NCBI GenBank assembly: GCA_002633005.1
Contig: NMRA01000516.1
Span: forward strand, 138,562-202,561
DNA: 64,000 nt
Origin: Phoronis australis
Lineage: Eukaryota > Animalia > Phoronida
Reading direction: 5' to 3'
Of the stretch, positions 1 through 60,134 are shown piece by piece. Within the stretch, counting starts at the first letter, position 1. Each line of letters begins with the position of its first letter. The notes below the pieces were generated by a model. The model did not search any database and had not been told where the DNA came from. It saw only the letters and a list, made by a program, of their open reading frames with translations. The position numbers were made by a program, and so were the translations under genes.

Positions 1-660
1 TTATTATTTCAAATGAACTTTTATCATGGAAATGAACAATTGATAAGAAAAATAAATTGTGCAGGGTTTCAGGTATCCTTGTGAAAGAGCTCACAGTCAT
101 ATCAAGTTTAGGGTATACCTGAATGGCCTTGCACGACTTGGCTTCATCTAGTCTGGTTTAGGTACACCCCAAATCATTTTGGGTGTACTCATAAAATTCC
201 GAATGTGTATTCAGCTCTCACCTCTAGGTACACCCCAAATCATTTTGGGTGTACTCATAAAATTCCGTTTGTGTATTCAGCTCTCACCTCTGGGTACACC
301 CCAAATCATTTTGGGTGTACTCATAAAACCGTGTTTGGGTGTTCAGCTCTCCAGCTCTGGGTACAGCCCAAATCATTTTGGGTGTACTCAACATAAACTT
401 GGTATTCAGATTTTAGGGTCTGGGCACACTCTTAATCATTTTGACAGTATTTGTGAAATTATGTTTGAGCAATCAAGTCTCAAGACCTGGGTACCCTCCT
501 AATTATTTTTACTGCACTCATTGTCCCAAAATTCCAAACTACAATATTTCAGATACACCGAAAACGAATTTTGGGTGTACCTGAGTGCAGTCAAAATGGA
601 TTTGGGTGTACCTGAGTCCCAAAAGGTTTACTTTTGCATTGCTTTTTCAACCAACTTAGT
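1..660 (+). repeat. Left TIR, inner part, with 66-bp palindromic subrepeats
   Basis: Units start at ~161, 227, 293 and 359, then degenerate. Each has GTACACCC-CAAATCATTTT-GGGTGTAC. Inverted match to 19400-20066. Confidence 0.9.
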
Positions 661-1478: not shown

Positions 1479-4400
1479 CTACTCGTCCTCCAGTGCTGTT
1501 GAGTGCAGCTGAGGTGGCCCTGGGCTACTATCGCTGAATTCGTATGGGTCCGGATCTCCAGCAATAATAGCCATGGCTTGAATGTCCTCAGCTCTCATGA
1601 GTTTCTCATCCACAGCAGTGGCATTCTCTTCCATAGCATTCTCACTCTCTTCCACCACATTCTCACTCTCTTCCACCACATTCTCACTCTCTTCCACCAC
1701 ATTCTCACTCTCCTCAACACTCACACTCTCTTCCACCATACCCTCACTCTCTTCTACCACACTAGCTCTTCCTTCCTCACTTACAGACTGAGTACTTATT
1801 CCGCTATCGTCACCCATGCAATGGCTAAATAAGTCCGCTTGCGACAATTTCTGCACATCTGCCTCCACTTTCCTCTTGTACTTGCCAACAATGGACTGCA
1901 CGATGGGGTTGTGACCGATATTGTTTCCATTGACAGTCACAGAAATCTGGCACTCCACTTGGTTCATATTCAGTCTTTCGTTGACTTGCTGGCAGTACTC
2001 CAGAAGCTGCGTAGGGATTTTTCGATCTGTGAAAAAATCAAGAAGCCTATTACCGCATGCGCATACATGTAGAAAAATGTAGCAGTAATATTTTTGTGGT
2101 GTAAAGTCGATGAACTGCAAGGTAAATTGACATAGGTCCAACTGCCATTTTTCCCTGTTCATCAGTACTATACACCTATTGTGTGTAGTTGATAGATAAT
2201 TTTTGTTCGGCCAAAGGCATCAAGTATACTTTGAAGAAGTATGGAATGCCTCAAATTATATCATCATGAAATTGTTTCAAACAGCTTCTTCATGTCATTT
2301 CTTCATGCCTACTTGGTTGTAATACTATTACTAATCGTGTAATAGGTGTGTTGCAAATATGTTATCGTTAAGACAAATGAGTGATGAAGATCACAAGATA
2401 TCATGTTAATCCATATCTCTTTAAACTGACAAATGTAGACTGACAGAACCAACCTTACCAGACAATTTCACCATTGGTAGGAACTTTGACAATTGTTCAT
2501 CAGATGAATACTGGGGGAACTTGTCTCTGGCCTCCTCAAAGCTGGAACACTTCACTCCATATGTGAACCCTCCTTTCACAACTTTCATTTTCTTGTAGTT
2601 GTCAATTTGACTACTGAACATCTTCAAATTGCCATGGGCTGTTAATGCTTCATCAAGAAAATGCAGTTGCTCACATTCCGAGAGTCCCAGCAGCTTGATA
2701 AAAAACTGCAAAATGTAAATCAAAGTTACAATTATATGGATTAACCGAGGATGACAGAATGTTTCACAAGTTGCATGATGTCATACTAGGCTTTTCATCC
2801 TTTATAACAATATTGAGCAGGTAAACTTCACCTAATACTATAGCCTCAATGCTGGCTATACTGTAGACAGGGGCAAAGCCCAAGCAGGAACACTGGTTCT
2901 CTCGAAAAGTTAAGGAGCCTGTCTTCATCAAGACCAGACAACCCACCATGAATCTAGCCTAAGGACTGCAGCTCCTCTGCTGTACCAATTTATTCTAGAT
3001 CTAGGTCAACAAAACGCTTGTAATCCATTCATTGAAGAAGACCTTAGATGAGGGTGGAAACTTAGAATCCTCCACAGCAAAAAGTTCGTAGTAAGAGAAT
3101 TTTACCTGATTTTAAGCATCATGCAACTTAAAAAAACTCCATGATGCCATCAGTTGCGATTTCAGGTATACATGAGTGCGTGTTTTTACATGCAAATATT
3201 GTTATACTTGCTATTATTGATAATTCTGACTTTCAACACATTGAAACATTATATACCGATAATAATCATGTGACCTTCCCCATGATGCCTGACTAATTCA
3301 AGAAGAAGTCTAATAATAGATTCATCTTATACTTCCCAATATGATCCGTTGTTCTACTATAAATTGTATAATAGCTAATGTATATTAACGACAAGTATTA
3401 AAATCCCTGTTTTAATAGGGACAGAGATAAATTGTCCCTTTCCTTCTCGTAGCAGGGACGTTATTCTCATTTTTTTACATCAGTGTCAAAATCTTCTCCA
3501 TTGAGTTTCTCATTCAATCTTAGAAAGGGAAAACATGTAGGATAGTAAATAAAACATTTGGAATCACACGCACCCGAGTTATATAGAGGGGTAAACAAAC
3601 CTTTCCTGTGACTAACAAACAAGACATTTTGTACTTGTAACCAAAATAAGTGACATTAATGGCAGTGGGTGTTTATTTGAATCTGCACTTCAGGCAACTA
3701 CTAAAAGTTGACTTTTTTAAAAATTCATTTTGTGGTTTAACACCCATGCTTGGTTTAATGCCAACCCCATATTTTTTGCTCACAATTGTAATGCCGTGGG
3801 CACTCACCTGTATATGTACGGTTATATGAAATTATTGAATTATTTCTATACAATTCTCAACTTACAGTTTGTCCAACCTCTGTTTGTGTGCAGTTTTCAT
3901 CCATTTTTTTCAATTCTTCTTTGTCAAAGAGCAGCAACACTTTACTGAAGCATCTGTTGCTTAGTGAGGCAACCTTGCAAATATAAGTTACAGCTTGTGG
4001 ACCCTAAACGAAAAAACAAAAAGAACAGTGCTACTTTTAATGCCATTATTGGAATTTACTGTATTGTTACGCAAATCGTGTTAGCATAGCTCAAAAACAT
4101 ACCACTCCTAACATATCACCAAATGCTTGCGAATTGCAGGAGACAATCACTAGATTACCAAACAATCGCAAAGAATATGCTCAACTGAGAGATAAAATGT
4201 AATATGCTATTATTTTTGGCTGTTACTTATATTAGAGGCAATTCTATGTTGATCTTGTTAAAAGTTCACAATACTAATTTATTTTGCACCGTCAATGCAA
4301 AATTTATAACTTGGAATATCTTTTCGAGCATTCTTAAATACAGCATTCATACCTATTTTGACTAGAAAAAATAATGTACAACAAACTTGGCGAATATGTC

Positions 4401-7400
4401 AGAAAAGATACTTCACATAGAAAAATTATTTTGTTCTTAGCATGCTGTGTATGGTTCAAATGTGCTTTGAGATTATAAGGTTAGCTTTGAGCACTTGCAG
4501 CAATGTAGTATATCCTTCAAAATAGAAAAAAATGGCAACTTCACAGTAATTATTATTTCCTGATATGATACTCATCTTTTGTCTATACTAAAGAGACAAC
4601 GATGTAGATTAATTTATACTAGTATAGGTATTTAGCTGGCTTACAGATTCATACCAAGTGATCCATTGCCAATTCCACTTGACACTTTTCCTTTATCTTT
4701 TGAGACACGCTGCTGCATGGGAATCCTTCTTTCCCCAATTCTTCTTGCATAATTCGTCTCGCGAGCTTAACCCTGTCTTGAAAGAAGGGTTTTTTGCCGG
4801 TTGTTCTGTGGTTATGCTGACTTGCCAGTCGCCTTGCTTCATGATTTGAGAGGCCAACGTAAACGTCGACCTCAACAAATCTGATTGCTTCTAGATGGTC
4901 GTCGTCATTCTCTTGGAGTACTTCCTGACAAGCTGTCCTCAAATGATTTCCTCCCAGAGTTTGTAACTTGTATTGCGCCAGTTTACCAGAGTCAAACTGG
5001 TCCAGCGATGGAACTTGCTTGCGATCAATTAGACAAGGAAGTACAGTGGAGTGTGGCATTGTTGTGTTTCGTACTAAACCTTGCTTGATGGAGTTCACCC
5101 AACTTCTACTAATATCTCGGACAAAGAGATCGTTGCTGGGTTTCTGCAAGGTTATCATGGACACTCTGTGTCTTCCTGAAACAAATAGTAATGAATTCTC
5201 AAAGCAGTTTAATTAGATAAAAATCTGATCATACCTACATTTTTCTGCACTGGAGACATGATAAGACCCATATTCTCTGAGCTTATGTTTTATGATTCTA
5301 AGTAATTGTATCACCCTGTTAAAACTCAATGAAAATATGTGTTATTGCAGCAAAGCAATCATTTCCACAGCCCACCAATTAACAGTTCTCAGCTATCACT
5401 AGTTCTAAACTTAGGTCTCTTAGGTCTGATGTCATTTCGACATCATCTTTGGCATAATTTTTTTTCCTGGCATGATAAATTTTCAGTCCCAACGTGTTAA
5501 ATTTTGGTTCTGACATGATAAATTATAGGTTCTGAAGCGATAAATTTTGGTTTTGAGTATGGCGTGATAAATTATAGGTTTTGAAGTGACAAATTTTGGA
5601 TTTCTAGAAATTGTGCAAACAAATTTAAATCAGCTTCCTTTTTCTGTAATGTGTGTCACCTAAAAGGCAAAAAAATCGAATCTTGTAAGTGAAAGAAAGT
5701 ATACCTGCGTATTTCTCTTGGAGTTGTTTGTCAACAGCAAGAGATACTATCTGGTTGCTGGGTGGACCAACATCAATGTTGTCTGGAACACTCTGAAGGG
5801 GCATTGTTGCTCTTGTCTTTGATTTTGGTGCTTCAACGTCAGGTGCTTTTGTTCGCTTCTTTGTCTTTGTTCCTTTTTTTACATTACTATTCTTGGTCAG
5901 GCACGATATGAATGACATGCCATTGAGCACTTGATCATGAAAAGTACTTGAAAACTTGTTACGGGTAGAATCAAACTTAGATCTAGCAAAATTTCGTTTT
6001 TCTCCACATCCCCGGAACTTGAACTGTAAAAAAGAATATTAAGCTCTGAGCTCAACAACAACATGACTGTGATACAAAGCACTGTAAATCTGACCTAACA
6101 CAAATGTGTTTTATATTATTCAACCCTCTCAAAATATGCTATTCAACAAAAGTTCTGTTTTATGTGTATAGATAATTCTTCACTAAGAGCTCAAAATAGA
6201 CAAGGCAAATTAACAAATGGTTTGACAAATGGACAAGTGGTTTGCTAAACAGGCAAGTGATTTGCCAAATAAGCAAGACTACTTTGCAGACTCTGTTGGA
6301 TAAACAAGTAAGATGACAAGTGATTAAGTAGGTTGCCAAACAGACAAGAAACCTGGGAGGCACAACTTTCAAATAATAAGTCAACTGTCAACTCAACTTT
6401 CCTTGTAAAATTACACAAGTGTCACTTCGCNCCCTTCCTAATGCCACAGTTTTCTAACTGTGGATGGTGGTTTAGTCAGGAAGTAATTGAAAGATAAGAA
6501 GCATGCTGAGAAACCCTGTCAGCAGTTGACTATTAATCATGAAGGGTGCTGAAAACTATGTCCCAAAACACTGTAAGACTTCTAGATTTGTTAAATTATG
6601 GATAAGTTCATATGAAACCAACTCATGTAAAGGCTCTGCGGGTATGATGCGAAAGCTACCAATCTATTCTGTTAGTTACATTTTTGACAAGACTGACCCT
6701 CAGTACATGTATGTAATGCAGAGCATTTTTGACACAAAGAGGAAAAATTGTTGTACGTTGTTAATAAAGACTCAACATAAATTTGAAGCTACCGGGATGT
6801 TTTATTTCTGGTTATGTTTTGATAAACATGACTGAAGAAAGTTTTTCAAAATTTGAAACAAAAAAATATGCTGTGTATATGCACAACTAACTGCAATAGT
6901 ATAGCCGAGTACCAAATACAGGACCACATCAATTCAAAATTTTGTAAAAAAAGTGGATAACCCAGTAAATTTTGCAACCACACATGATTGCATGTCATAA
7001 TGTTAAATTTGACTTAAAATTATGGATTGACAATTAATTGGCGGGTGGCTGAACCAAGATTTGGAGATGGTATGTGGTCGTAAACAGTTCTATTTACTTT
7101 TAATCAGGCACCTTGATTTCAACAAGCAATGTCACCACGACTACTATAATTTTAATTTAAGAATGGTCACTGACAAATTGAGAAAATCTGAACATGAAAA
7201 AGTATGTATTTATGCAAACATGCAGAACCATTGTAGTTTGGACACAACACTCCGTTTTCAAACATTACGGTGAATTCATGCAAGAAGTGAATTAATTGCA
7301 AATATATTTTCTTTTCAAGTAAATTTTGGCATGCATTGAAGTAGTCAAAATTAATTCAACATTTCATTTGCATGTTTACTTACACTGGTGTATTCAGCTG

Positions 7401-7524
7401 TTCGACCAGGCGAAACTTCTTCAATAGCTCCATAGTCTTCCCCATCAGCAATTCTTGTAAGTTTTTGACCATTAATGTGAACAAAAATATCACCGCCTTC
7501 TTGAACAAAATACCACTTAGACAT
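1479..7524 (-). CDS. Transposon accessory protein with ParB/sulfiredoxin-like N-terminal domain, helical region and acidic tail (~637 aa, 6 exons)
   Basis: Exons 7524-7384, 6023-5705, 5175-4655, 4003-3866, 2705-2459, 2026-1479. All introns are GT-AG and the phases join into an open 1914-nt CDS. Motifs: VRDISRSWVNSIK, LQTLGGNHLRTAC, VDVYVGLSNHEARRLASQHN. Confidence 0.8.
1624..1775 (-). repeat. Coding 21-bp minisatellite (EESENVV heptads)
   Basis: Tandem TTCTCACTCTCTTCCACCACA units in the last exon of the ParB-like gene. Confidence 0.85.
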
Positions 7525-7899
7525 CTTGCCTGGAGCACTCACAGTATCAAAATAGTTCAAATCAGTCACTTTCTTATTTAGTTTGAGCAAATGCTGACAA
7601 AGCAAAACCAATCAGATACCATGGTCTCACTTTAGTTTTGGAGGGAACATATTTCATTGGATGGGCAAGATACTTATTCAATAACAGTGCCATGGTCATG
7701 ATAATACTTAACAGACTATCAACTATGACTGAAAACAAATTACATGTCACTCAGTACATGTATAGGCCACATGGATTAATCAAACTTTAAAACTGTTGTT
7801 ACAGACATTAAGGTTTGAGCTCAAATTGACAATCAGAATTTCAGTGGCTTCACATAACTTCCTACATTGAAGTTGGGTTTTATCTAGCTCGTGTTAAAA
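7525..7899. promoter_or_regulatory. Putative bidirectional promoter
   Basis: Only 375 bp separate the divergent predicted ATGs (7524 -, 7900 +). Inferred from geometry only. Confidence 0.5.
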
Positions 7900-10656
7900 A
7901 TGTCTTGCACGGAATCGGAAGATTTTTCAGATTTTTCCGCGTCTGATGAAGACTTCCCACAAGTGGATGTGAAAGAAAATGAGTTTTTCACTTCTGGTAA
8001 GTACTTCTCACACGTAAGTTATGAATTTTTGCATTTCCTACTATCTTAGTTGTTTTTTGCTAATTAATCTATAGATTAAATAACCTTGTCTGGCCCTCTG
8101 ATATGAACCCTAGGTAAGAGAATTGCATACTGAAAAATATTTTTAGAGCGACAATATAAAAACTGCATTAAATTATCATTTGTTCAAAATGAATATTAAA
8201 TCAAAACAGGTTTTCTGATAAAATACAACTTTAGAAACAGTGTTTTAAATTAAAGACGGTCACAAGTTTTGAATTATGTCATAGGTATAAGTTTTAGTAG
8301 CTGTTGCTACTTGACATTTGGAATACTGACAGTTAAGAGAAAACTTTGAAGTGATTAGCAAACTGGGAATAGAAATCAACATGCAATTTACATTGACACT
8401 CGGTTTATACTGGAGTAAAGTCAGCATAAAAGGGTCGTAAGTTGTATCTGAAAATTTGTGAAAACAATTCATGTATCAAATTCATAAAGCATATGTTTCA
8501 GGCAGGGATGATTCAGCATTGTTTTGTCCTCTTTGTTACAAGCTGCACAAAAATGTCCACAAACATATCACATCTGCCCCCTCTCCCAAATTCTTCTAAA
8601 CTTCAGCGCTGAAAATGCCATACTCTCGGTAGTTTTAAACTGAATTTCACAGTTGTGTGAATAATGAAGGAAACAAATACTGTCACGCATGCAACAGTGC
8701 AGCAAAATTATCAATGGATTGCCGAAGCCCAAAATTAGTAGTTTTCAATGGAAAGAGTTTTTAGCTATTCACTTCAAGTGCACGATTTTAAGAATTAATT
8801 AGTAATGAAATGTAGCATTCTTGTCACTTAAGTCCAGAACTTCGGATGACCTGTGACAAAAAAGAGGAAAGACTTCCAGCCTGGAAGTGATGTTTCGTTT
8901 CACAAATAAATACGCTTGTGTGATAGGAATATTTTTTGTGTTGTAAAATTTAACTGAAATAAATGATTTTGCATCAATAAAGTCAAAATAATGATAAAAA
9001 GAGACAAAAAAGATGAAACTGGAGACCAAATAAGAGGAAATAGAAACCAAAATAGAGCAAATCCTATTAAAAAGGAACATTCCAAGCCCTGTAGGTCTCA
9101 ACATTGTAAAATATAGCTCATCCTCCTAGTCACTGAAAAGCATTTTAAATCACCAACTGACACTTTAGCTCAAGTGAAAACAAATGAGGCTAGTATTACA
9201 TAATAGTACCTCTGATAACAGACAAATGCACAATTCAGATTGTGGTTCTAGAGACTGGAAAACAAGAACCATTTGGAATTTCTGAGTTTTAGAGTCCTGC
9301 CTAAGAGTTGTGTGTGGAGTCCACTACAAATGAAGTTAGGACTTGTATGTCACTTGGCCAATTATCCTTTTACAAACAGATGGTAGACCTGTTGTTGACA
9401 ACACAACAAATGCTTTCAGACACTGTCACATTTACGGTAAATTCAGGGGTCACCTAAACCACTGGTATTACAATGCACTGTAACATTTTCAATTTTTCGT
9501 TAAAGTTAGTGTGCGCAATATAAACTGAATAGTCACACTTTATAGTGGAAGGGCATAAACAATAAAAAAACTTCCAAAATATGTACAAGGAAGTGAAATT
9601 ACTTGTTTGTAAAGAGGCAGTCCTCATTACTGACGCCTGAAACAAAAATTACAAACCAGTCTATGGCAAACTATCACCAATTTCAAGCAAACAAAATTGA
9701 TTAAACTGTCCTTTTTCAATTTTTAAGGGCGTCCAACAAAGGTAAGACAATCAATGTTTCAAATATTGTCATTCTATGGCACGTGTGGTACAAAACTTTA
9801 AAATGGTGTTAATCTGGTTTAATTTTTTTAAAAAGAAAAGTTGAGAAAATAATTTTTCTTGTTTGTCATATTGTGTACCGATACGAATTATCTAAAGTAA
9901 GGCAAATCAAACAACGTACAGAAACCTGTTTCTTGTTCCAGGTGCAACTGAATCATCTTCTGACCAAAATTCTCTGAATGGTGACATTTCAAGTGATGGT
10001 TTATCTTCTGATGAATATGACTCAGAAGATGGCGTGGAGCATACAGCAAGCAAGGGTATTTATATATTTTCTGCTCAGTTCCTCTAGTTCACATTGGTAG
10101 ATGCATGCTTGTACATTTAAGCGACAAAAGAATATTGCTGCATAATTCAACACTCTGCCATGTTTATTCAGCAGGTCAAAAGAGTAAAAATTGGTTAAAA
10201 TGAGTCATTTGTGTTTAAAAACTGTTAGAACATCAATCCTGTATTGTTGATTCACTTGCTGTGTCATCAGGCGGTAGGTGACAAACCAAGTTTTCAGTGT
10301 ACTGTAGAAACCTTGATTAATATGACCACATCAGGCTAGAAATAGGATTGACTACAGATGTTCACCAATAAGTCAAATCTTCCTTTTTATTCTCCCACAA
10401 CATTGTCAGGCAGTGGTGAAAGTCATAGTTATTGTAAGACACATTGCCTTTCACTTTTCACATCCTGTTGGAAGTGTTTAACTGAGACATGTTTTTTGTT
10501 TGATTTGCCAACCAATATTTTAAGATGGTTTCCTACTCCTAGGTTTGCCTTCAGTAGTTAGTGACTAAGCAAGCACATGTGAAGTGACCTTGCATATTTT
10601 AATGATTAAGATTTTCGCTTTGCCATGACATTCAATGCGTGTGCACGCACATGTGC

Positions 10657-10704
<48 letters not shown>

Positions 10705-13700
10705 AAGGGTGCATGCGTATTTGCATTATTGAAATTGAGCTTTGAATTGAAAAATATTTTTTTGCATTAAGTGAATATTTGGAGTTTAAAAACCAAACCT
10801 GTGGACACTATAAATTTCCTTGGACCTCCAGCACAGGTACTCTAATTTGGGGTTTTGTGTTGTGAAAGGCAGTGACGACAACATCATGCTGCTCTGGGTT
10901 TGGTTGGTTTATGTTGCAAATCAACCTTGCCTGCATTCATCGAAAACACTGTTTCTGCCTATTTTTGTGTTACTGTTGGGTGAACTTGTCTTTTTGTAAA
11001 CAAATGTCAAGTTTATTTAGGAAGCATTAAAATTGACTCAGAAATAGTAAAGTTGCAACTTGTGCTGGTTTAAGTGAAGTACACTGTCCAAAAACACTTG
11101 GCCAACTACAACATTATTACGCTACCAGTGTAATTAGTTATTAGTATGGCTCTGAGGGCAACCAGTCTGACGATGACATTTCGAGTTTCAATATATCGCC
11201 TAATGTAGATGAGTAGAAGAGTCCAATTAGTACCTGTGCCCAGCAGTGAAAAATTGTAGAAGTAATGCAGTGATATGAGGAATTGTGTTTTGTATGGTGG
11301 ATAGAGAAAAAATGAAATTGCATACTCTGAAAGATTGTTGAAGCAGGTCAGGTCAAAGTCTTTGAATCCATTCAATCTCACATTTACTAATATCATAGGG
11401 TTGCCTTATAGGTTTAGTGTAGTTGCAGCTCTGGTTATCTAAGGTCATTCCAGTATAAAGAATCATTGTGGTTTGAGTTCTTGCTATGTAACTTTCTGTG
11501 GTCTGTGCCTGTAAATAAATCAGACCACATACAATCCCCACATCAAGCCATAAATCCAATAACAGGCTTGACCAATATTGCTCTGAAGACAGTTACTAGA
11601 GTCCAAGCTTGGTGACCTTTAAATGTTTTGTCTGAGTGTTGTTTGGTGGAATTTCCTTGGCATCATTATCAGTGTATTCTCTTATGAGTGTTCACAGTCC
11701 AGAATGTATTGCACCACCCAGCCTAGTCCATTGTGTGGATGCCCTTTTACAACAACCTCATTAACTTTCTCCTGTTTACAAAAATTTTGTCATTGTGCTG
11801 AACTATCAACCAATGATTGTACATAAGGACACAAATAGACTTACATTCCTATCATAATTGACAGTGCCTGAACACAAATGCTTATAACTCTAAAGGATGG
11901 GTTGGGGCAGCACAGCAGTGTTTTCATTTCATCATTTTTAAGTGGAAACAAATAGTGATTTCAGTTTGGTTTACAATTAAAACAATTGATATTTTTAAAA
12001 CTGTTTTACTTTCAAATTATTTTTTTCGTTTTTAAGCTTGTTCTACTTTTAAAATATTTTAACACAGTTTTTATATCAGATTTTCTTTTTAAACATGTTT
12101 TACTTTCAAATTGTTTTTCCCTTTTAAAAACAAAATATTTTCAAATTTGTTTTCTATTATTTTCTTTTTGAACATGTTTTACATTGAAAATAATTTTCGT
12201 TTCTTTTAACTTAGAATATGTTGTTTTCTTAGCAATTTAGCTTGGGATCGGTGTGCCCCCATAGAATGGAAAAAGCTTTCATTCAGCACTTCACTTGCAA
12301 AGGTACTAGTAATTGATTCATTGCCCATGAGTTTTAATATTTTAAAATTATATCTCACTGGATGAATATAATTTTTGGGTTGAGTAAATTTATCAGACAA
12401 AAATCTTATAAATACTAGTTGAGTTGACGGAATAATAATTTTATTTCTTTAATTTATTGAATCAAAATAAGAACTTCCACCAAATTCATTCATGTCCCCA
12501 TTTCTGATGTTATCTTGCATAAAATGAGACTTTCATGAATCCCATCACCATTTTGGAACACAGGTTATGTGCACCACAGGATCTGAAAATTGTCCTTGTA
12601 GCAAACTTTCATTAAAATACGTGATTATTTTGATGTTACAGCCAAACCCTGGTTACCACCAAACATTTACCTAAGTGAAGACTCTAGCATTGGGTGATGC
12701 CTGTGTTCTGAGCCACTTGTCATTTAATCAAGAAGTAACAATTTTATATATAGTTCGCCTGGTTCAACTACAATCCACAACTGTGAAAGAAAAAACAGAC
12801 AATGCAAGAGGACAGAAATTTTGATCATGCTTTAAGTGTAGTTGTTTCATGATCAGAGTTTGTGAAGTTGACGATTTTTGGCTTTTGAATGAGGCGCAAA
12901 GCACCCACTGAGCTGAAAAAATGCAACGCAGTGCAGTTTACAAAAAGACACGAAGCAATCTAATCTATACTTGTTACACCATGTGGTGATATTTGAATAT
13001 ATACTACCATTAATCCAGATCAAAAGTTTAGGAACCAGCATTTACGCACTATTCTGTCTATGACCGTATGGTAACCTTGATTCCAATAACTGTAGCACCG
13101 GACAGGAATACAGGTGACTTTCAAGCAAAATATGTAAACAACTTTGGTAACAATTTTATAGTATGAACTTTGCACCAAGTACCATAGTAATTGTGTCAAT
13201 ATTGTAGAATCGCACTATAATTTTAATACTGACTCCAGGTTTCTCTTAAATGCAGGAGCCGGGCGTGGTCGGCCAGTTGGCTCACTCAAAAGACAACGTG
13301 AAACAGACACGGATTCAGACTCAGAGAGCGAGTCAATTCCAACACACCACCTTAAGAAAAAGCCAGGTAACATCTGCTAATTAAATAATGCCGATTATGA
13401 TGTCTTTAGTAAAAGTCGACTAAAAATGTTTTTTTGAATTTCATGAAAAGTACAAAAGACCGAAATAACCAAGAATGCATTCAGCAAGGGAAAATCCTCT
13501 TTAGGCTTTTTCATAATGGCTGAACTCTGGTCTCAGCAGAGCGTCAATGTAAAATGCGAAGTTAACTAAACCGTTCATACTGAGTTTGGTAGTTAATGGA
13601 CATCGAAGTAACCAGTAGGTGACACTGTTGCCATCGATGTAATCGTAAGGTAGTGCTACACGCTAAGGTTTTTCTTAATGTGACAATTTGGGAATATTTA

Positions 13701-16700
13701 CATGTGCTAATTGACATGAAACTTATTTTTAATTCGATTGGTGATTATTCGAGCAAAATATTAGCGAATACACTACCCTTTAATTGTTGACGTTAAGAGT
13801 GGCACTTGGCAATAACTTCGATGGGACCGAAGTTGACCGTTCATACTGCACCGCAGCATCGACGCTCTGCTGTAAAATCCACCTGTTTAGTGGGAAGTTT
13901 AGTGGTGCTGTTAACTTTGATCCAGTCCGAAGTTAATCGTTCATACTGACTGCAACTCCCCAAAAGATCAACGCGTAGACGTTGCTAAGAAAGGCGCTTT
14001 TTAGGATGACTTTATTACTTGTGTCTTACACTGGTTGATTTTTTGCAGCAGTAAAGAAGAAGCTGATTCCATTGGGAAAGCTCTTGTCAGCACAATGTTG
14101 TGTCCTCTTGTGTCTATCACTTATGGCTATGAGAGAGCTGCATCAAGCCAGATCTGATTTTCAACAAATGGGAAAGTCAGAACAGCGACAATGGATCCTA
14201 AATTACTTGCGCACACATTCTACGTGGAATAAAAGATCGCTCTGTATGGATTATTCTTATATGATTGGAACCACACAACTGTGCCTTCTTGGATGGAGGA
14301 CAGCACTTGGTATCTCCCAAAGCACATTTAGACGGATCAAAAGCAAGTTTGAGAGTAAGATTATTATGGTACTATATCAAGACAGTGCTGTTAAAACAAA
14401 TTGTTTGAGTTCTCAAATTGTTTTTTTTTAAATATGCTACATTTAAAAGGGCATTAATAGCATTTTACACTACTGACTTAATTCTTTGCATACCTTTTTG
14501 ATACTTATTGCCAACTCAAAAGAGTATTCCTTTTTTATATATTTGGAGATCACAGATGTGTACTACACTGATATGAAAATAATGTCTGGATTTAGGTTAT
14601 GTCTAGACCTTTTTCCGATATCACGAGATTAGTGTACCTTAATGAACAAAAATTTTCACACAAAATTTTGTTTCTACACAGTGTTACTACAAACTGTTCA
14701 CTAACTTTGCAGTGTTACACTGTACGCACGAAGATTGGTTCAGGTGTATGCTAGTTGGGCCTGGATTTTATTCATTATAGTTTCAGGTTAGTCACACATG
14801 ATGTACTGTTTTCCATTCTTCTGATGTTTATGTATTAAAGCAAAAAGTCAGCTACAAATTTATGTATTTTATTTTTGCTTATTGTCACAAATTGCTGAAT
14901 CATGTATATCTTAACACATCAACTGTGAATGATTTCAGATGGCCAACTGAATGGTTCTGGATATGGTGTTCGAACAAAAAGACTGCTGCCTTCGACTCAG
15001 GCATGCCTCACTTGGTTAGAGACGTATGCGCAAAGATTTGGTGACAAGATGCCTAATAACCATCAGATACATCTTCCCAGCTGCCTAACCAAGCGTTGCC
15101 TGTATCAACAAATGGTTGCAGAACTCAGTGACCAAAATATAGATGCATGTTCTGAACCTCATTTCTACAAATTGTGGAAAAACAACTTAAAACACATAGC
15201 TATTCCAAAGGTAACACCTTTTTCATGAAACATCAATTTTACAAAAAGCTTTTTACCTGTCAACCACTCGGTTCTCCACATGATTGCAATTTTTATAGAG
15301 TTATGCCCATGATAAATTCACTTTGGGGTAATCCTAAGTGCAAAAATTGACCCTTTTCTCGATATTAAAGACTTACTGTATTGAACAAAAGTTTTAAAAC
15401 GTGTAAGACATGTAATCACTAAAATACTAGAAGTTGTATGTCAATTCGCAATGGACATGTTAATATCTAGTATTTGTCTTCTAGGAAAATCGCTTTGCGA
15501 AATGCGACGGCTGCACTAAAATTAAATCAAAGCTGGAAAAAACAAAAGATAAGAAGAAAAGGGAATACCTACGAAGAAGACGGGAAATGCATCTTATGAA
15601 ACAAAAGTAAGTTGGGTGCAGTGTAACTTAACATAATCATCCAGGTTGGTGGCAGTGGTTGGCTAAATGTCTTTCCCTTTTACTTTTTAATGTCAATGCT
15701 CAGTTCTACCTTCATTACTTCTTGGAGAATTTCAGCTACCTAATCCCACACAATTTCCTTGCCACTTAATAAGAAACAAAAGCACTGCTTGCACTGGTTT
15801 ATGAAATAGCTTTCATCAGTACAACTGCCTGGGTGTATTTGATTACTCGAGAAATGCTGACTCAAGAAAGTTCTTTTAATAGACCTGTGCTTAGCTTAAT
15901 GTAATGCCTTGTACAAAATATTACTTAGAAAATTCAGTCTTTATGAGAAACCACCTCATTTGCACTACCATGCCAGGCACTTGACTTACTATAATAAATC
16001 ACATCTCTTACAGCACAGAGAGGAGAAAGTATTACAAACACTCCACAAAAGCCAGATGCAACAATCGAAAATACATGTCCATGATCATAGATGGCATGGA
16101 TCAAAAGAAAACTTACTTGCCGTGGTTCAAGCGCACCAGCAAATTCCTAAGCAGTATGTGGAAACTGAAGGTTCATGTGACAGGAGTTATTGTGCATGGA
16201 ATATTAGTGTACGGATATTTTGATTTAGGACAGTGGGGACAGGGTCCCAATGTCACGGCCAATTTACTTTTGATGACATTGTGCACTCTTCGTGACAGTT
16301 TGCCACCAGTGCTCTACTTACAAATGGACAACTGCTACAGAGAAAATAAGAATGTGTATATTCTAGGACTGTGTGCTCTGCTCATAGAATTACGTATTTT
16401 CCAAAAGATAAAAATTGGATTTCTGATGGTTGGGCACACTCATGAGGATGTTGATCAGGTGTTCTCAAGGTTTTCTTCATATTTACATAAGCATTCTGCC
16501 CTAACAATAACTAAGTTGATGAATGCTTTTCGCAACTCATTCAGTCCTGAGCCCAAAACGAAATATGTAACACAAATGTATAATATTACTGACTGGCTCA
16601 GGCCACATCTAAACAAGATTAGGTTTCACTCCGTGCCACATCAATTCAAATTTCGATTAGACGAGACTGGGCGATGTATGCTGTTTGCCAAAAAGTGGTC

Positions 16701-18850
16701 ATCAGACAAGAAGTGGCTTCCTTGTGACTATAACGAAAGTGATGGCAAATACCTGTTGAAGTCTGTTCCAGAGGGATCACCAGCACTTTTGCAGCCCAAC
16801 TTTGACAAGATCGATTTTGACAGACTTAAGCATGCTGTTAGTTCATCGTACATTTACATGAACCACGAAGAAGACAAAGAATGGTGGAAGGAATGGTTTG
16901 ATGAGATGGATGATGCTATGGACAGTAAGTCAAAAGTCAACATCTGTTTTTTTAAATGTGCTTCAATGGTATTTTGCTGACATTGAGTCCAATCTCAAAA
17001 ATACTGAGAAGAAATATGGTGAGGTGAACCTTATTTTTGTCCACTTGTAAAGTCCGTGAGCACCATTCTTCCATCAATAATAACCCCAACAAACAATCAC
17101 TAGCTCAACAGTAATTTCCATAATCATATGAATATACATATCTGCTGGAGTCATGATAACCATGGTTAATGGTTATTTTTTGTGATGCATTACGAAGAGT
17201 AGTCAGTCGAAGTATAGTTACATTTACCATGAAAATGTGTCCCGGTAACGGTGTCTTCATTCAGTCGAGTTAAGAGGTGGTCTGTAGTGTTCCAACTCTT
17301 TGAGGGCTGAAAACCCTTTAGCTATCTGAGGCGTTTATTAGGGCTATTCACTTTGTAGAAACAGAAGTGAAGTCCTATCATAGCAATAAAAATTTTGAGG
17401 CAAAGAAAAAATGGCCTGGTTTTGATTTTGCCTTTCGACTGGCTACACGAATGAAAATGCACCTTTCATAAAAACTCACAAATTTCTCGTGGGTTTACAT
17501 TTCAGATACTGTTGAAAGAGATGATCAACAGTGGTACTTGAACTCAATTTTGTCAGCAAAAAGTAATGCTGGCCATTCTGAGATTGAAACGTCAGACCAT
17601 GAAAGCATTTCAGGACTCTCCGACTTTGATGAAGAAGATAATCCGATGCGTCCAGTAAGTTTTGTTATTGAGCATGTAGCTAGCTAAGCGAATCTAGAAA
17701 TAGTTCAAAGTGACATATCCTTTCACATGGAGGAGGAACATTCTTTCGGTGACAATAATTTTTGTCCAAGTGCAAAGGTCATTTACAGCAAGCATGCACA
17801 ATATACTTCTTAGACATTTTTAGGCTTCTAAGAGTCACTTTGAAATGTTCAAGTGATTACGACAATTTCAAAATGTTAAACATCATTCAATGATAGAATA
17901 GTAATTCATCATCCTCATGCTTGCAGTGCCTTTTAGCTTGTTACATAGACTTAGACACAAATATTCAGTAATGTATCGTATTCAACAGATTAATTCCCGA
18001 GTTGTTTTATCTGAATACTCAAAATCAGGGAAGGGCCTTAATTGAAGCATGGGATTTAGTAGTTTGAGGTGATACATTAGGTTGACCATCTGTCAATAGC
18101 TGCATAAATGAAAGTCATCTTGCCTGCAAGAATAAGAAACGAGTCAGACACTAAGAATTTCACAAATTCGTGCTTTTGTTGCTCTGGATAGAAATTAGCA
18201 ATTTCAAACATATGGTGTTTCCAACTATAAAAAAACTAATAACCTAATAGAGATGCATACAACTAAAGGTAACTATTGTAGTGAAAACTTGAAAAATGAG
18301 ATAACAGGCATTAAACAGGACACTGGTGTGTATCCAGACTACTAAGATACAATTGCATGTTTTAAGAATTGCCTGTGGGTATGGGTGTGTCTATGTTTGA
18401 GTCAGGTAAGTGTAAAATTGAATTTTGAATGATGATTTACCTTTACAATTCCTCAGGAAGTCATTTTGTATTTTACAGCTTTTACTCGGAAGCTCAACAA
18501 GCAATAAACATGTCATCCGCAGCGAAACTGTTCAAGTTTCGCCAATTAAACAGGGAGACATGTGTTTGCTAGATATCGAAGAGGAACGTAGTTATTGGCC
18601 ACAAGTGGCTGAAGTGATGGAAGTGGAAGGGGACAATATCGTAATAAAATGGTACCGAGGGTCCCTGACCACTTCATTTAGTGTCCTCACTAGACCAGTA
18701 AAAGGGTGCCGAGGAAAACGTGAACCATGGACCGAGACAATCAATAAAAATGTAGTGTGGTACAATGGCTTTAAGCTGACTCGAAAACAAAACCTTCCCA
18801 AGGATGTAAGAGAAAGATTGAGGGAGTATGAGATGGACTTGGAAAATTAA
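7900..18850 (+). CDS. Sola-like (DUF7869-type) DDD transposase, ~817 aa, 9 exons
   Basis: Exons 7900-7996, 9942-10055, 13256-13366, 14049-14354, 14939-15210, 15485-15606, 16014-16924, 17506-17654, 18479-18850 give an open 2454-nt CDS with GT-AG introns. Catalytic motifs IIDGMDQ, LYLQMDNCYRENKN, FLMVGHTHEDVDQVFS; also GDKMP, FYKLWK, CDGC..H..H and AT-hook GRGRP. The first three exons are less certain. Confidence 0.88.
10658..10702. repeat. (GT)n microsatellite in transposase intron 2
   Basis: About 22 GT units. Confidence 0.95.
13504..13997 (-). mobile_element. Harbinger-like MITE nested in transposase intron 3
   Basis: Inverted, diverged copy of 25195-25695 (CTCTGGTCTCAGCAGAGCG, GTTCATACTG repeats); GGC.TTTC..AGAAAGGC ends. 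Confidence 0.55.
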
Positions 18851-19399: not shown

Positions 19400-20066
19400 T
19401 GCTGAAAGTAAGTTGGCTGAATGAGCATGGCACAAATAATTCTCATTGTAACTAATTTACACCCAAATCCATTGTGACTATGCTCAGGTATGCCAAAAAT
19501 TCATTTTGGTGTTTACCTACAATTGCAGTTTGGAATTTTGGGTGAATAGGTGCAGGCAAAATGATTTGGGCTGTACCCAAATCCTGAAAACTGAATGCAC
19601 AAACAATTTGATGAGTACACCCAAAATGACTTGGATGTACCCAGAGCTGGAGAGCTGAATACACAAACACAATTTTTGAGTACACCCAAAACCATTTGGG
19701 GTGTTCCCAGAGCCTGAGAGCTGAATATGCAAATGCAATTTTATGAGTACACCCAAAATGATTTGGGGTGTACCCAGAGGTGAGAGATGAATACACAAAC
19801 GGAATTTTATGAGTACACCCAAAATGATTTGGGGTGTACCTAGAGGTGAGAGCTGAATACACATTCGGAATTTTATGAGTACACCCAAAATGATTTGGGG
19901 TGTACCTAAACCAGACTAGATGAAGCCAAGTCGTGCAAGGCCATTCAGGTATACCCTAAACTTCACGTGACTGTGAGCTCTTTCACAAGGCTACCTGAAA
20001 CCCTGCACAATTTAATTTTCTTATCAATTGTTCATTTCCATGATAAAAGTTCATTTGAAATAATAA
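19400..20066 (-). repeat. Right TIR, part matching the window's left end
   Basis: Reverse complement of 1-660: near-identical at 19739-20066, diverged inward. About 5-6 66-bp palindromic units. Confidence 0.9.
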
Positions 20067-20628
20067 CATGTTAAGAGTGATTCAACGTTTGTCATAACTT
20101 TGAGTTCATGTTGATTTTGCAGCCCAAACCTCTACACACAATGTCTTATCCTCATTCAAGCTGACACAAAATGTGAGTTGATCCAAAAACTACAATTATG
20201 AATTAATATACTACTGAAGATGAGAGGCGTTCCAACTTCATATACTACCTGCATAGTCAACAGTTTCTACCGACTCTTGTTTTCTGTTACAAACAAACTT
20301 ACCTGGTAAAAGAAAGACCATTTGCAAGAAAAGTTTATCAAGCCACTGTCAACCAGAGTACATACATACCAAACTTCTGTTAGAGCTGCACCACACTCGA
20401 AAACCATACTTCATAAGTGCTCTCCTGACACAACTGCACTCTCTGACAGCTAAACCAACTCTAGCTCAGTATTTGGATATTTGAATAGGCAGTGAAAACT
20501 TTTGTTGCATATTCTTTGATGTTATTAAGGTAACATGTTTAGTCATTCAAATTGGGTGATTACCTCCCAGTGGCCTTTCAGAACTGCCAAGCATTTAAAT
20601 TGTATCTTTATTGAAGAGTTCTATCATA

Positions 20629-20977: not shown

Positions 20978-22147
20978 TCATTTCCTTCATAGTCACGAAG
21001 TAACACAAAGTATACACCTGAAGACCTATGAAAATACAGAGGTTAATGTAAAATACTAAAATTGCCACTACCGGCATACCGGTAGTCAAAATCATCCTAA
21101 AGTCGTCATCATCCGTTGTCAACATCACATAAATGCTAAATTTAGTAAAGATCCTGCAAACGGTTTGGGAGATACAGCCATGCGCGCAAAAAAAACTGCC
21201 ACTAGGAGGCGCCCCAGTAATCAAAGTCATGGGAAATTCAGCGTCAACCATCCTCTTCATAGTAAGAACATACATGCCAATTTTCACAATCATACTTAGA
21301 GCGGTTTGGTTGATAGAGGGGTGGACGCCAAAAAACAGACTCAAGAACAGTAAAAATGGCCACTGGGTGTCGCAAACTAGGTCGAATCCATCCAAAAACG
21401 GGAGGATAGCGTCATCGCACTAATAGGTGCCTACATACCCAATTTCATGAAAATCCGTGAAGATACAGATCTAAACGTAAAAAATAAAATTGCCACTAGG
21501 GGGCACACTGGTATGCGGATCCGTGCAAAAGTCATCATCGTCTGCTTTTAACATCATATAAATATACTTATTAAATTTCGTAAAGATCCTACGAACGGTT
21601 TAGGACATACAGCCATAGGTGCAAAAAAATAAAACTGCCACTAGGAGGCGCCACAGTAGTCGAAATTGTCAGAAAATCATCGTCAACGGTCCTCTACATT
21701 AGTAAGCATATACATGCCAATTTTCACAATCATCCTTAGAGCGGTTTGGTTGATAGAGGGGTGGACGCACAAAAACAGACTCGAAAACAATAAAAACGGC
21801 CACTAGGTGGCGCAAACTATGTCGAATCCATCTGAAAACGAGAGGATAGTGTCATCTCACTAATAGGTGCCTACATACCAAATTTCATGAAAATCCGTTC
21901 AGGACTTTTGAAGATACAAAGGTAAGCGCAAAAAAATAAAAATGCCACTAGGGGACACACCGGTAGTCGGATCCATCCAAAAGTTCGCACATGCCGTCCC
22001 ATTCATGAATGGAACATATGTGCCAAATTTCATGAACATATGTCAAAGGATTTGGAGATAGAGCAGTGGACGCCGGCCGGACGTCGCCCGTACGGACGGA
22101 GATGACGGCATAATGCGTCCACATATAAATATGTGGGCGCATAAAAA
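20978..22147 (+). mobile_element. Helentron-associated/pearl-like non-autonomous element, 5'-truncated
   Basis: ~145-bp core subunits with CCACTAGRxGGC, a GGAC-type microsatellite remnant, and a 3' hairpin ATGCGTCCACAT..ATGTGGGCGCAT followed by an A-run. Homologous to 60135-61684. Confidence 0.65.
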
Positions 22148-22338
22148 ATGTCACTAGGAGGTAAAGCAGTACTTGAATCAGACAGAAACTCATTGCCATC
22201 TGTTGTCAGTTTCATAACAACAAATCACATCACCTGATTAAGATCCTACAAGGTGTTTCAAAGACAAAGCAGCAGGAACACCACAGAGAGATGACACCTT
22301 GCCTAAAAGGCTTAACACATAGGTGAGATAAAACATAC

Positions 22339-23833
22339 CACATGGACTCTCATCAAAGCCGCTGGGACAGTCCTTGACACCATCACATCGCAGTTTTTCT
22401 GGCAAATAGTTGAGGGAGCAGTTGAATGTGTCTGTGCACTTGGGCTCTAGACAGAAACCACAGGTACGTGGGCAGTTGTCCATCATCAGCTGTCTAAAGT
22501 CCTCTTTACCACATAACCCCACAGCATGAAATTGTGCACACTTAGACGTATTAGCATCAACACAAGGATTCACAGTTGTCCCAGAAAAGGAAGTCGTGTT
22601 GCCATCTCTTGTGGACATAGGTGCTGTGGACCCTACTGACCTTATAGTGCTGACCTGCTCTGCAGTAAACATGGAACTACAAAACTGGCATGTTAAAGCA
22701 CAATTGTCCTTCATCACTTGAAATAAACTTGGGTTGGAACAATGGCCGTGACTTGAATATAGCCTGCACAGAGTTTGGGGATAACTGTCAGAGCACGTGC
22801 TGGAAGTACTAACCACAGTTTTAGGAGTAGTCATAACAGCACGACTTTCTTCACACAAATCACAACTGGATGGACACGCTTGCAGCATCTGAGGTTTCTG
22901 CTTGGGATCTTTGCAGTATCCATTCTTTACATAAATCTCACATGTTGAGGGATGGAGAGAATCTGAGCAACTAAGTGGAGTTGTTGCACCGCAAAAGCCA
23001 CAAGTGAGAGAGCAGTACTCTCTCATGAACATCATCTGGCTGTGGCTGTTGCAATGTCCTGTTCTTGTAAACAAGTTGCACACAACAGTTTCTAGCTTGT
23101 CTCTACAGCCCGAAGGTGCCACACAGAATTTACAGGAAAGAGGACACAGAAACTGCATCTGGTTATCATTCAAACACTTGCCTTGTTCAACTAGCCTGGC
23201 ACAGGTACCCAAGTCATAGATATCCCTGCAAATGGGGACTGAACGAGTCGTTGAAAGACTATTTCTCATAGCTGAAAAACATTAAACACATGAAGCACCA
23301 AAAACCGAGTACATGAAATTACATCAATTATTATGAGAAATGAGTTCAAAAAAGTAGGAATTTGAAACAAGCAATAAATGCCATAAGCTTAGTCTGATAG
23401 GTATCAATTGTACATTAATTACAGTAGTTGACTAGTCAACACAACTTACAAAATGAGGTTAAACATTGTTGACCAACCACTAATGAGTCTAGCAATGAGG
23501 TTTATTCACTTCAGAGTGCATTAAACAGACAAATCTGAAAACTAAAACTGGTAAATCCTGATCCAGCTAAGAACAGAAGCTACCCACCATATGGTTGAAT
23601 CAATGGAATGAAGGGTAGTTGCTAAAGAGTGCCTAACACAGCCGTGAAAAGTTTTATTGATGTAACCAGTATACACTTGAACCCATTAAAATTTCATTTC
23701 GCATCGTTATCAGAATAGCCAGTATGAAAATAGATATAGAAACTGAAGAAAGCAGCTGTAATCATTTACCTGCACCATAACAAGTGCTCAAAAAGAAACA
23801 GACTGTAAACCCGATTCTGAGATATCCAAACAT
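22339..23833 (-). CDS. Secreted 5xShK + LDLa protein (gene D); final exon not in window
   Basis: Signal exon 23833-23770 (MFGYLRIGFTVCFFLSTCYGA). Exon 23271-22339 has five C.D..C..C..C...CxxC domains and CDGVKDCPSGFDE, ending at a phase-1 donor as in the paralogs. Confidence 0.85.
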
Positions 23834-58737: not shown

Positions 58738-58740
58738 TTA

Positions 58741-60132: not shown

Positions 60133-60134
60133 TA

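What the first reader, a model, noticed from the sequence alone, without database searches (positions are those of the whole stretch)
4655..5175. ParB/sulfiredoxin-fold domain in an animal transposon, with a variant motif GGNHLRTA
Seen: R.I...V..I, LGGNHLRTAC and VDVY.GL...EA..LA..HN follow the ParB N-terminal pattern, but Arg is one residue later than in canonical GxHRxxA. Known: bacterial ParB is a CTP-gated DNA clamp, and the fold also includes nucleases and Srx. Inference: it could be a nucleotide-dependent clamp or bridging factor helping synapse ends ~20 kb apart, or an anti-silencing factor.
Basis: partly seen in the sequence, partly recalled or inferred. Interest (0 to 1): 0.85.

Follow-up and report, generated by a model that had tools for sequence, protein, structure and literature searches.

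The report
ParB-fold passenger gene in animal transposon
An intact 20-kb DNA transposon, very likely from a marine invertebrate, carries a second six-exon gene whose protein is predicted to have the fold of bacterial ParB DNA clamps and likely binds the transposon's own end repeats; similar passenger genes are published for algae, but this form has lost their DNA-methylase tail.

Summary
Exon 5175-4655 (minus strand) is exon 3 of an intact 637-aa six-exon gene, head-to-head (375 bp) with an intact 817-aa DUF7869 (Sola-type) transposase, inside long terminal inverted repeats. HMMER found 129 relatives; named ones come from eight animal phyla and Chara. A confident model of a nemertean relative matches ParB, KorB and Noc (Z 9-10) ahead of sulfiredoxin (Z 6-7). 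The 'shifted' Arg is a family trait (87 of 113), not a quirk of this gene. Canonical GERRxRA, the sulfiredoxin Cys and a DGQxR motif are absent, so it is ParB-like, not a ParB. The idea is in print: an Ectocarpus Sola1 element carries an opposite-strand ParB+methylase gene, and red-algal Plavaka elements carry PAG3. This scan also found such genes before on other DNA, including animals. New here: a complete animal element with an effector-less form (ParB domain, helical domain, short C-terminal motif, acidic tail). Best guess (0.4): a nucleotide-gated clamp that loads on 27-bp palindromes in the element's ends and shields it from silencing. Nucleotide binding, dimerisation and DNA binding are untested. 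No transcript was seen in four RNA runs.

The parts
4655..5175 (-). Exon 3 of the accessory gene (model aa 154-327): ParB/Srx-fold domain with R20, GGNHLRTA (4954-4931) and HN (4816-4811)
7384..7524 (-). Exon 1 of the accessory gene (ATG at 7524, 47 aa); the least supported exon
   Evidence: donor GTAAGT and phase fit; only one local alignment (P0098, envelope 4-393) reaches it
5705..6023 (-). Exon 2 (aa 48-153), with a basic stretch (37% K/R over aa 91-120), a likely nuclear localisation signal (inference)
3866..4003 (-). Exon 4 (aa 328-373): start of the helical middle domain, candidate DNA-recognition helix (inference)
   Evidence: aligned with relatives; helical-domain HMM built without the window protein, E 1.1e-14 over aa 331-472
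2459..2705 (-). Exon 5 (aa 374-455): rest of the helical domain
1479..2026 (-). Exon 6 (aa 456-637): short subfamily-specific C-terminal motif (aa 482-509), then an acidic tail (29% D/E) with a 21-bp tandem repeat; no methylase domain
   Evidence: motif E 0.0014; no hit to the methylase-like HMM
7525..7899 (.). 375-bp gap between the two start codons, a likely shared two-way promoter (inference)
7900..18850 (+). Transposase gene, nine exons (7900-7996, 9942-10055, 13256-13366, 14049-14354, 14939-15210, 15485-15606, 16014-16924, 17506-17654, 18479-18850), 817 aa, no stop; DUF7869 core in exon 7
   Evidence: intron 16925-17505 spliced in 3 reads of run X1 and 2 of X2
1..658 (+). Left terminal inverted repeat (cut by the window start), with 27-bp quasi-palindromes at 162, 228, 294, 361, 585 (period 66)
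19409..20066 (-). Right terminal inverted repeat, with the same palindromes at 19550, 19615, 19680, 19747, 19813, 19879
   Evidence: 85% over 662 nt; 95% over the outer 391
20067..20074 (+). Candidate right end and TTAA target site (TTAA at 20071); unconfirmed because the left end lies outside the window

Best explanation
The exon encodes the ParB-fold domain (predicted) of an intact accessory protein carried head-to-head with the transposase of a 20-kb Sola-type DNA transposon, and the protein likely works as a self-recognising, nucleotide-gated DNA clamp that would load on the 27-bp palindromes in the element's ends and spread inward to keep it open against host silencing. Shown: gene structure, intactness, place in the element, family, fold of a close relative, loss of the methylase tail, the palindromes. 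Inferred: (1) the conserved R20, GGNH-x-R and HN residues form a nucleotide pocket, with the later Arg standing in for the canonical one; (2) the helical middle domain reads DNA as the ParB/KorB middle domain does; (3) the short C-terminal motif dimerises the protein; (4) the palindromes are its loading site; (5) the benefit is anti-silencing, as VirB does with this fold in bacteria. Relatives that keep a methylase or oxygenase tail would use the same module to carry a chromatin-marking enzyme to their own element; this branch keeps the targeting module alone.
For: Fold: model of relative P0004 has mean pLDDT 81 (over 95 in most blocks of the ParB domain). VIA-align ranks M. xanthus ParB Z 10.2 (rmsd 7.0, 131 aligned), Caulobacter ParB Z 9.8 (rmsd 2.5, 97), pNOB8 ParB-like Z 9.2 (rmsd 4.5, 200) and KorB Z 9.0 (rmsd 3.8, 183 aligned, model 37-290 on chain 52-245, i.e. 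running past the N domain) above sulfiredoxin (Z 6.1-7.0) and the first unrelated row (Z 5.3). 26 of 28 listed Foldseek PDB rows are titled ParB/Noc/KorB/PadC/Spo0J/Srx. The family profile's PDB hits are sulfiredoxin in 6 of 7 (E 0.13-1.5). Pocket residues are conserved: R20 93%, G76 94%, N77 94%, H78 88%, R80 76%, H121 88%, N122 90%; they fall on the ParB motifs in a collinear profile alignment. For residues 185-395, rows 1 and 3 of the Atlas structure search are HTH_ParB regions (TM 0.36, under the bar). Linkage: a Mytilus edulis gene model joins a relative of this domain to a DUF7869 transposase 51% identical to ours. Palindromes: 5 left and 6 right, none elsewhere in the window at up to 7 mismatches. 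Precedent: opposite-strand ParB+methylase gene in Ectocarpus Sola1-1 (PMC12477816, passages); PAG3 beside inverted-repeat arrays (bioRxiv 2025.02.11.637652, section 8); VirB as a CTP clamp that counters silencing (PMC10676424, abstract and passages).
Against: The canonical GxxR Arg that supports CTP binding is present in only 9 of 113 motifs and absent here; 25 of 113 have neither Arg. The Glu positions of GERR and EN are Asn and His. Profile-profile comparison with canonical ParB is not significant (probability under 1%, E 0.1-0.35; reversed control E 0.49), nor is that of the middle domain (E 0.55). No Foldseek PDB match reached E<=0.001 (best 1.1e-3). The fold was shown on a relative; the window exon folded alone gave pLDDT 36. 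Subterminal repeats of TIR elements are commonly transposase sites (recalled), and no private palindrome lies in the introns. No read covers exons 2-6 in four RNA runs at 80% likeness, while the transposase intron is spliced in 5 reads (under a fifth of each raw run was read). Linkage to a transposase is shown for only 2 loci (this one and P0027).
Confidence: 0.4

Rival explanations
1. Transposition cofactor: the protein binds the subterminal palindromes at both ends and bridges them across 19 kb, so that the transposase can form a paired-end complex. CACTA TnpA is a recalled precedent for a second protein on subterminal repeats.
For: Palindromes occur only at the two ends, in mirror arrays. 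The ends are 19.3 kb apart. ParB bridging is described in PMC10786196 (passages). The head-to-head layout suits co-expression. This form has no enzyme tail.
Against: Relatives on other elements carry methylase or oxygenase tails, which points to chromatin marking. Transposase transcripts were seen without accessory transcripts.
Confidence: 0.22
2. Nucleotide-free DNA-binding or scaffold protein: the ParB pocket is a relic, and the protein is only the targeting half left after loss of a methylase; it binds element DNA or recruits a host factor through its acidic tail, without a clamp cycle.
For: The canonical Arg and both acidic residues are replaced. 25 of 113 relatives lack both Arg residues. 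The helical domain is shared with Chara methylase fusions (E 6e-6 and 5e-4).
Against: R20, G-G-N-H and H-N are 88-96% conserved in relatives that are 23-46% identical overall, which is hard to explain without a ligand.
Confidence: 0.2
3. Captured host gene that rides as passive cargo and has no role in the element's life cycle.
For: Most named relatives are annotated as plain uncharacterised genes and their surroundings could not be read. One relative is nearly unchanged across four abalone species, like a host gene.
Against: Intact gene head-to-head with an intact transposase inside 95%-identical arms. The same pairing appears in Mytilus and, with a methylase tail, in a brown-algal Sola.
Confidence: 0.1
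4. ParB/Srx-fold enzyme: a nuclease or an ATP-dependent transferase such as sulfiredoxin, SerK or the DGQxR nucleases, acting on rival DNA or on host proteins.
For: By sequence the profile's best PDB hits are sulfiredoxins, GGNH aligned to GGCH. One relative has a weak DndB hit (E 0.005).
Against: The sulfiredoxin Cys position is Asn in 107 of 114 and Cys in 1; the DGQxR Asp position is Gly in 109 of 114 (motif roles recalled). Clamp-type ParBs score about 3 Z units higher and align over two domains.
Confidence: 0.08

Closest known systems
ParB-like + N4/N6 DNA methyltransferase accessory gene of Ectocarpus Sola1-1_Ec32 (PMC12477816; passages read)
   Same: Giant (21.5 kb) Sola element; ParB-like gene on the strand opposite to the transposase; proposed to bind its own element.
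   Different: Brown alga, Sola1, 1104 aa with a methylase. Here: animal, DUF7869 transposase (Sola3 type by recall), 637 aa, no methylase. Sequences were not compared directly (not held; supplements not read).
PAG3 of red-algal Plavaka (EnSpm/CACTA), Zisupton and Fanzor elements (bioRxiv 10.1101/2025.02.11.637652; passages and section 8)
   Same: N-terminal ParB-like domain in a giant DNA transposon, inverted-repeat arrays proposed as binding sites; its best HHpred hit 7BNR is also a top structural hit here.
   Different: PAG3 has a putative 2OG-oxygenase tail and the arrays lie next to the gene; here there is no such tail by Pfam and the palindromes lie in the terminal repeats. Different transposase superfamily and host.
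Bacterial ParB/Spo0J, Noc, KorB and VirB CTP clamps (PDB 7bnk, 7bm8, 6sdk, 7ng0, 8qa9)
   Same: Predicted N-domain fold, a following helical domain that aligns with the KorB middle domain, order N-middle-C, palindromic candidate site.
   Different: GGNHLRTA instead of GERRxRA, HN instead of EN, 11-17% identity, no ParA seen, spliced eukaryotic gene; CTP use and clamping untested.
Sulfiredoxin (PDB 1xw3, 3cyi)
   Same: Same fold; GG-x-H motif; best sequence-profile hits.
   Different: No Cys at the catalytic position; multi-domain; lower structural score.
DUF3723 (PF12520), auxiliary gene of fungal Starships (bioRxiv 10.1101/2021.12.13.472469; passages)
   Same: Accessory gene of giant eukaryotic mobile elements; near neighbour by language-model features (0.94, 170 of 256 shared).
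   Different: No PF12520 hit for the exon or any of 129 relatives; Starships use a tyrosine recombinase; no held paper has both DUF3723 and ParB.

Membership tests
ParB/Srx superfamily | ParB/Srx alpha-beta N-domain fold | tested here: met
   Model of the 43%-identical relative P0004: Z 9.8, rmsd 2.5 over 97 residues to Caulobacter ParB; searches agree
ParB CTP clamps (ParB/Spo0J/Noc/KorB/VirB) | GERRxRA / GxxR nucleotide motif | tested here: not met
   GGNHLRTA; canonical Arg in 9 of 113 relatives, absent here (motif)
ParB CTP clamps (ParB/Spo0J/Noc/KorB/VirB) | Acidic residues for CTP hydrolysis (Glu of GERR and of EN; positions recalled) | tested here: not met
   Asn77 and His121 at those positions; Asn122 kept
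ParB CTP clamps (ParB/Spo0J/Noc/KorB/VirB) | Helix-turn-helix middle domain | tested here: inconclusive
   KorB aligns over 183 residues at 3.8 A; Atlas TM 0.36 to HTH_ParB regions, under the bar; profile-profile E 0.55
ParB CTP clamps (ParB/Spo0J/Noc/KorB/VirB) | C-terminal dimerisation domain | not tested
ParB CTP clamps (ParB/Spo0J/Noc/KorB/VirB) | CTP binding, clamp closure, loading at a palindromic site | not testable with these tools
   Candidate 27-bp palindromes only
ParABS partition system | ParA ATPase partner | tested here: inconclusive
   No ParA family among 16 frames scanned with Pfam; only two long genes could be modelled in the element; no dedicated ParA search
Sulfiredoxin | Catalytic Cys in GGCHR (role recalled) | tested here: not met
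   Asn in 107 of 114, Cys in 1
DGQ[HQ]R nucleases (GmrS/DUF262, DndB) | Asp before the Gly (motif recalled) | tested here: not met
   Gly in 109 of 114, Asp in 1
Algal-type ParB-effector transposon accessory proteins | ParB-like domain encoded inside a giant DNA transposon beside the transposase | tested here: met
Algal-type ParB-effector transposon accessory proteins | C-terminal DNA methylase domain | tested here: not met
   No hit of the 637-aa model to an HMM of four methylase-like tails that finds P0137 and P0140; no Pfam hit on five of the six exon frames (exon 4 not scanned)
Algal-type ParB-effector transposon accessory proteins | Shared ancestry with the methylase fusions | tested here: met
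   Chara P0062 (N6_N4_Mtase) and P0099 match the exon at E 1.7e-6 and 8.4e-5 and share the helical domain
Sola superfamily (Sola3) | DDD transposase of the DUF7869 type (link of DUF7869 to Sola3 recalled) | tested here: inconclusive
   PF25273 E 3.5e-72; no Sola profile or reference sequence was available; the original paper is not held
Sola superfamily (Sola3) | Long terminal inverted repeats and TTAA target duplication (recalled) | tested here: inconclusive
   Arms of at least 660 bp; TTAA at 20071; left end outside the window; if the end is at 20070 it does not read 5'-GAG as recalled for animal Sola3
DUF3723 (PF12520) | Match to the Pfam model | tested here: not met
   0 of 129 relatives at E<=0.01 and no hit for the exon at E<=1

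The most novel reading that the evidence does not exclude
Animal Sola-type transposons run a working ParB/parS-like system in the nucleus: a nucleotide-gated sliding clamp with a rewired pocket (GGNHxR/HN) loads on element-specific palindromes and spreads over or pairs the ends of a 20-kb element. The effector-less branch, kept across several animal phyla, would show that the clamp itself, not a fused methylase, is what selection keeps.
Probability: 0.3. Interest if true: 0.8.

Novelty: new variant of a known kind. Interest (0 to 1): 0.5.

Why it matters
ParB-type sliding clamps are known from bacteria and their plasmids. Published eukaryotic cases are algal transposon genes fused to DNA-modifying enzymes, none tested. 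This element is complete, with both genes open and the candidate sites in view, and it lacks the enzyme tail. It is therefore a clean system to ask what the ParB module alone does for a transposon: whether it binds a nucleotide, recognises its own element, counters silencing, or helps pair distant ends. The last would bear on how giant cut-and-paste elements move large cargo. If the pocket proves dead, it remains a useful annotation of a widespread, unnamed invertebrate family.

Tried and rejected
Single-sequence searches with the exon found nothing: Pfam, PHROGs, NCBIfam, PDB sequences, word-index protein searches, phages, locus scans of metagenome, viral and prokaryote contigs. Four plasmid hits at E 5-10: the two I opened lie outside annotated genes and look like chance. 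Folding the exon without an alignment failed (pLDDT 36). The word-index search with an alignment returned only 3 already known proteins. Locus scans with a close alignment found 3 short metagenome contigs without a transposase match and nothing in prokaryote or viral contigs; the transposase exon found nothing in viral contigs. The family profile found nothing in two ParB-bearing plasmid records. P0046 (a CHAP/holin repeat protein) was dropped from all alignments as a false hit; alignment A1 used 114 of the 129 hits (long proteins and one 54-aa piece left out). The tree (100 domains, quick method, 18 of 85 branches well supported) gave no supported clade for the window protein and is not used for order of events. 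A search for an intron-wide private palindrome, prompted by earlier findings, found none. No RNA holder was listed for the gene. No whole genome is held, so copy number and selection across copies were not measured. Two papers were not held. Not-in-print check: searches listed no paper on ParB-like genes in animal transposons; the library lacks most subscription journals and Repbase Reports, and I read no supplements, where the algal sequences or animal cases may be given.
Full report
Setting. The first 20 kb of the window is one element. Inverted arms at 1-391 and 19676-20066 are 95% complementary and extend to about 660 bp at 85%; the left arm is cut by the window start. A TTAA follows four bases after the right arm, but the target duplication cannot be checked. 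Each arm holds a 27-bp quasi-palindrome at a period of 66 bp, 5 copies left and 6 right, none elsewhere in the window at up to 7 mismatches. Two genes start 375 bp apart and point outward. The plus-strand gene has nine GT-AG exons, 817 aa and no stop; its seventh exon matches DUF7869 at E 3.5e-72, and one intron is spliced in 5 reads of two RNA runs. That DUF7869 with these motifs is the Sola3 transposase is my recollection; no call tested it. The host is an animal by the ShK/LDL-receptor genes next door and by the taxa of the nearest named relatives.

The observation. The finding is exon 3 (5175-4655) of the minus-strand gene. Six exons join in phase into 637 aa without a stop. All quoted motifs are present. 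Single-sequence searches gave nothing, but the full HMMER scan gave 129 relatives at E<=0.001, 27 at 1e-10. Of 30 looked up, 19 carry an organism name: 17 animals (Tubulanus, Lingula, Mytilus, Mercenaria, Mya, Solemya, Haliotis, Owenia, Anneissia, Amphiura, Ptychodera, Branchiostoma, Exaiptasia; eight phyla by recall) and 2 Chara. The spliced model aligns with the Tubulanus protein over residues 126-532. Three metagenome loci share the acceptor site at the exon start, and against two of them third codon positions are saturated while second positions are 68-69% identical. The gene is real, old and under selection as a protein. No read covered exons 2-6 in four RNA runs; the tissues are unknown and under a fifth of each raw run was read.

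The fold. A profile of 115 sequences hit sulfiredoxin in 6 of 7 PDB matches, none significant (E 0.13-1.5). The language-model search placed the exon beside unnamed sponge and mollusc clusters, DUF3723 and a ParB_N cluster (0.94-0.97). The exon alone did not fold, so I folded the 438-aa Tubulanus relative, 43% identical over 151 residues, with a 123-row alignment: mean pLDDT 81. Foldseek listed ParB, Noc, KorB, PadC, Spo0J or sulfiredoxin in 26 of 28 rows, best E 1.1e-3, and 14 viral matches at E<=0.001, the named ones ParB-like or GmrSD. VIA-align gave Z 10.2 and 9.8 for ParB, 9.2 for the pNOB8 ParB-like protein, 9.0 for KorB over 183 residues at 3.8 A, 6.1-7.0 for sulfiredoxin and 5.3 for the first unrelated row. 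The ParB/Srx fold is therefore well supported (about 0.95). UniRef independently names a Mytilus relative a ParB/Sulfiredoxin domain protein.

The motif. Against 60 phage and prophage ParBs the family profile aligns end to end but without significance (E 0.1-0.35, reversed control 0.49): GGNHLRTA on xGERRWRA, HN on EN. R20, G75, G76, N77, H78, A82, H121 and N122 are 88-96% conserved. The sulfiredoxin Cys and the DGQxR Asp are absent. The protein fails the motif tests for ParB, sulfiredoxin and those nucleases, while keeping a constrained pocket.

Architecture. After the ParB domain comes a helical domain (E 1.1e-14 to an HMM built without the window protein), then a short C-terminal motif shared with Tubulanus, Mytilus, Owenia, Ruditapes and Mya relatives (E 0.0014), then an acidic tail. 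The helical domain is weakly shared with Chara relatives that go on into an N6/N4 methylase; an Exaiptasia relative has a tail that I grouped with these by eye. The window protein has no such tail. Evidence that the middle domain is a ParB-type helix-turn-helix is structural and modest; the profile test failed. A Mytilus edulis gene model joins a relative of the domain to a DUF7869 transposase 51% identical to ours; it may be a chimeric model, but it shows the same two genes side by side in another phylum. The three metagenome contigs (1.6-3.2 kb) showed no transposase.

What is known. Earlier notes of this scan pointed to algal precedents, which I checked. Red-algal Plavaka, Zisupton and Fanzor elements carry PAG3, ParB-like plus 2OG oxygenase, next to inverted-repeat arrays (bioRxiv 10.1101/2025.02.11.637652; passages and section 8). 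Ectocarpus Sola1-1_Ec32, 21.5 kb, has an opposite-strand ParB-like plus methylase gene (PMC12477816; passages). Both papers propose self-binding and self-modification, untested. VirB shows that the fold can serve as a CTP-dependent anti-silencing clamp (PMC10676424; abstract and passages); the domain order and motif of ParB are from PMC10786196 (passages). Eight searches listed no paper on such genes in animal transposons, within the library's limits. The scan's own notes already report animal, fungal, euglenid and dinoflagellate cases, unchecked by me.

Mechanism. I favour a self-recognising clamp that loads at the terminal palindromes and keeps the element open (0.4): clamp-type ParBs are the best structural matches over two domains, the pocket is constrained, palindromes are present, and sister proteins carry chromatin enzymes. 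End pairing for transposition (0.22) fits the position of the palindromes equally well and is not exclusive. A nucleotide-free scaffold (0.2) fits the lost Arg and Glu residues. Passive cargo (0.1) and a nuclease or transferase (0.08) fit least.

Verdict. A real feature, correctly seen and correctly assigned to a fold; a new variant (animal, DUF7869 element, effector-less, intact) of a kind described in algae in 2025.

Noticed in passing
window 22238-57714: Cluster of frames with repeated ShK-like domains, two with an LDL-receptor class A repeat (22238-23281, 33290-34447, 48646-50337 minus; 56866-57714 plus; weak at 38383-39144); looks like a tandemly expanded host gene family.
   Followed up: no
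window 42811-44173 and 58739-60134: A second large inverted pair, 1.4 kb at 84%, 14.6 kb apart, enclosing ShK-domain frames; either two copies of a dispersed repeat or another TIR element with cargo.
   Followed up: no
window 13509-13994 and 25198-25690: A repeat inside transposase intron 3 has an inverted copy outside the element (75%) and high RNA depth from diverged copies. Other nested repeats lie near 5502-5548, 6206-6368, 7215-7293 and 8853-9078.
   Followed up: partly
window 21188-22175 and 60188-61636: Two arrays of a roughly 145-bp unit with a conserved CCACTAG-G-rich core, 13 copies; resembles the CTCF motif (recalled).
   Followed up: no
P0115, P0147-P0149 (Haliotis): A 543-548 aa relative (ParB-like domain, weak Tudor hit at the C-terminus) is almost unchanged in four abalone species: a candidate domesticated host gene.
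   Followed up: no
P0062 (Chara braunii): Gene model with two ParB-like units, each followed by a methylase-like region.
   Followed up: partly
P0027 (Mytilus edulis): Gene model that fuses a ParB-like piece to a DUF7869 transposase on the same strand, unlike the head-to-head layout here; real fusion or chimeric annotation.
   Followed up: partly
window 18479-18850: The last transposase exon encodes a roughly 120-aa domain without a significant Pfam match; Tudor-like by eye only.
   Followed up: no
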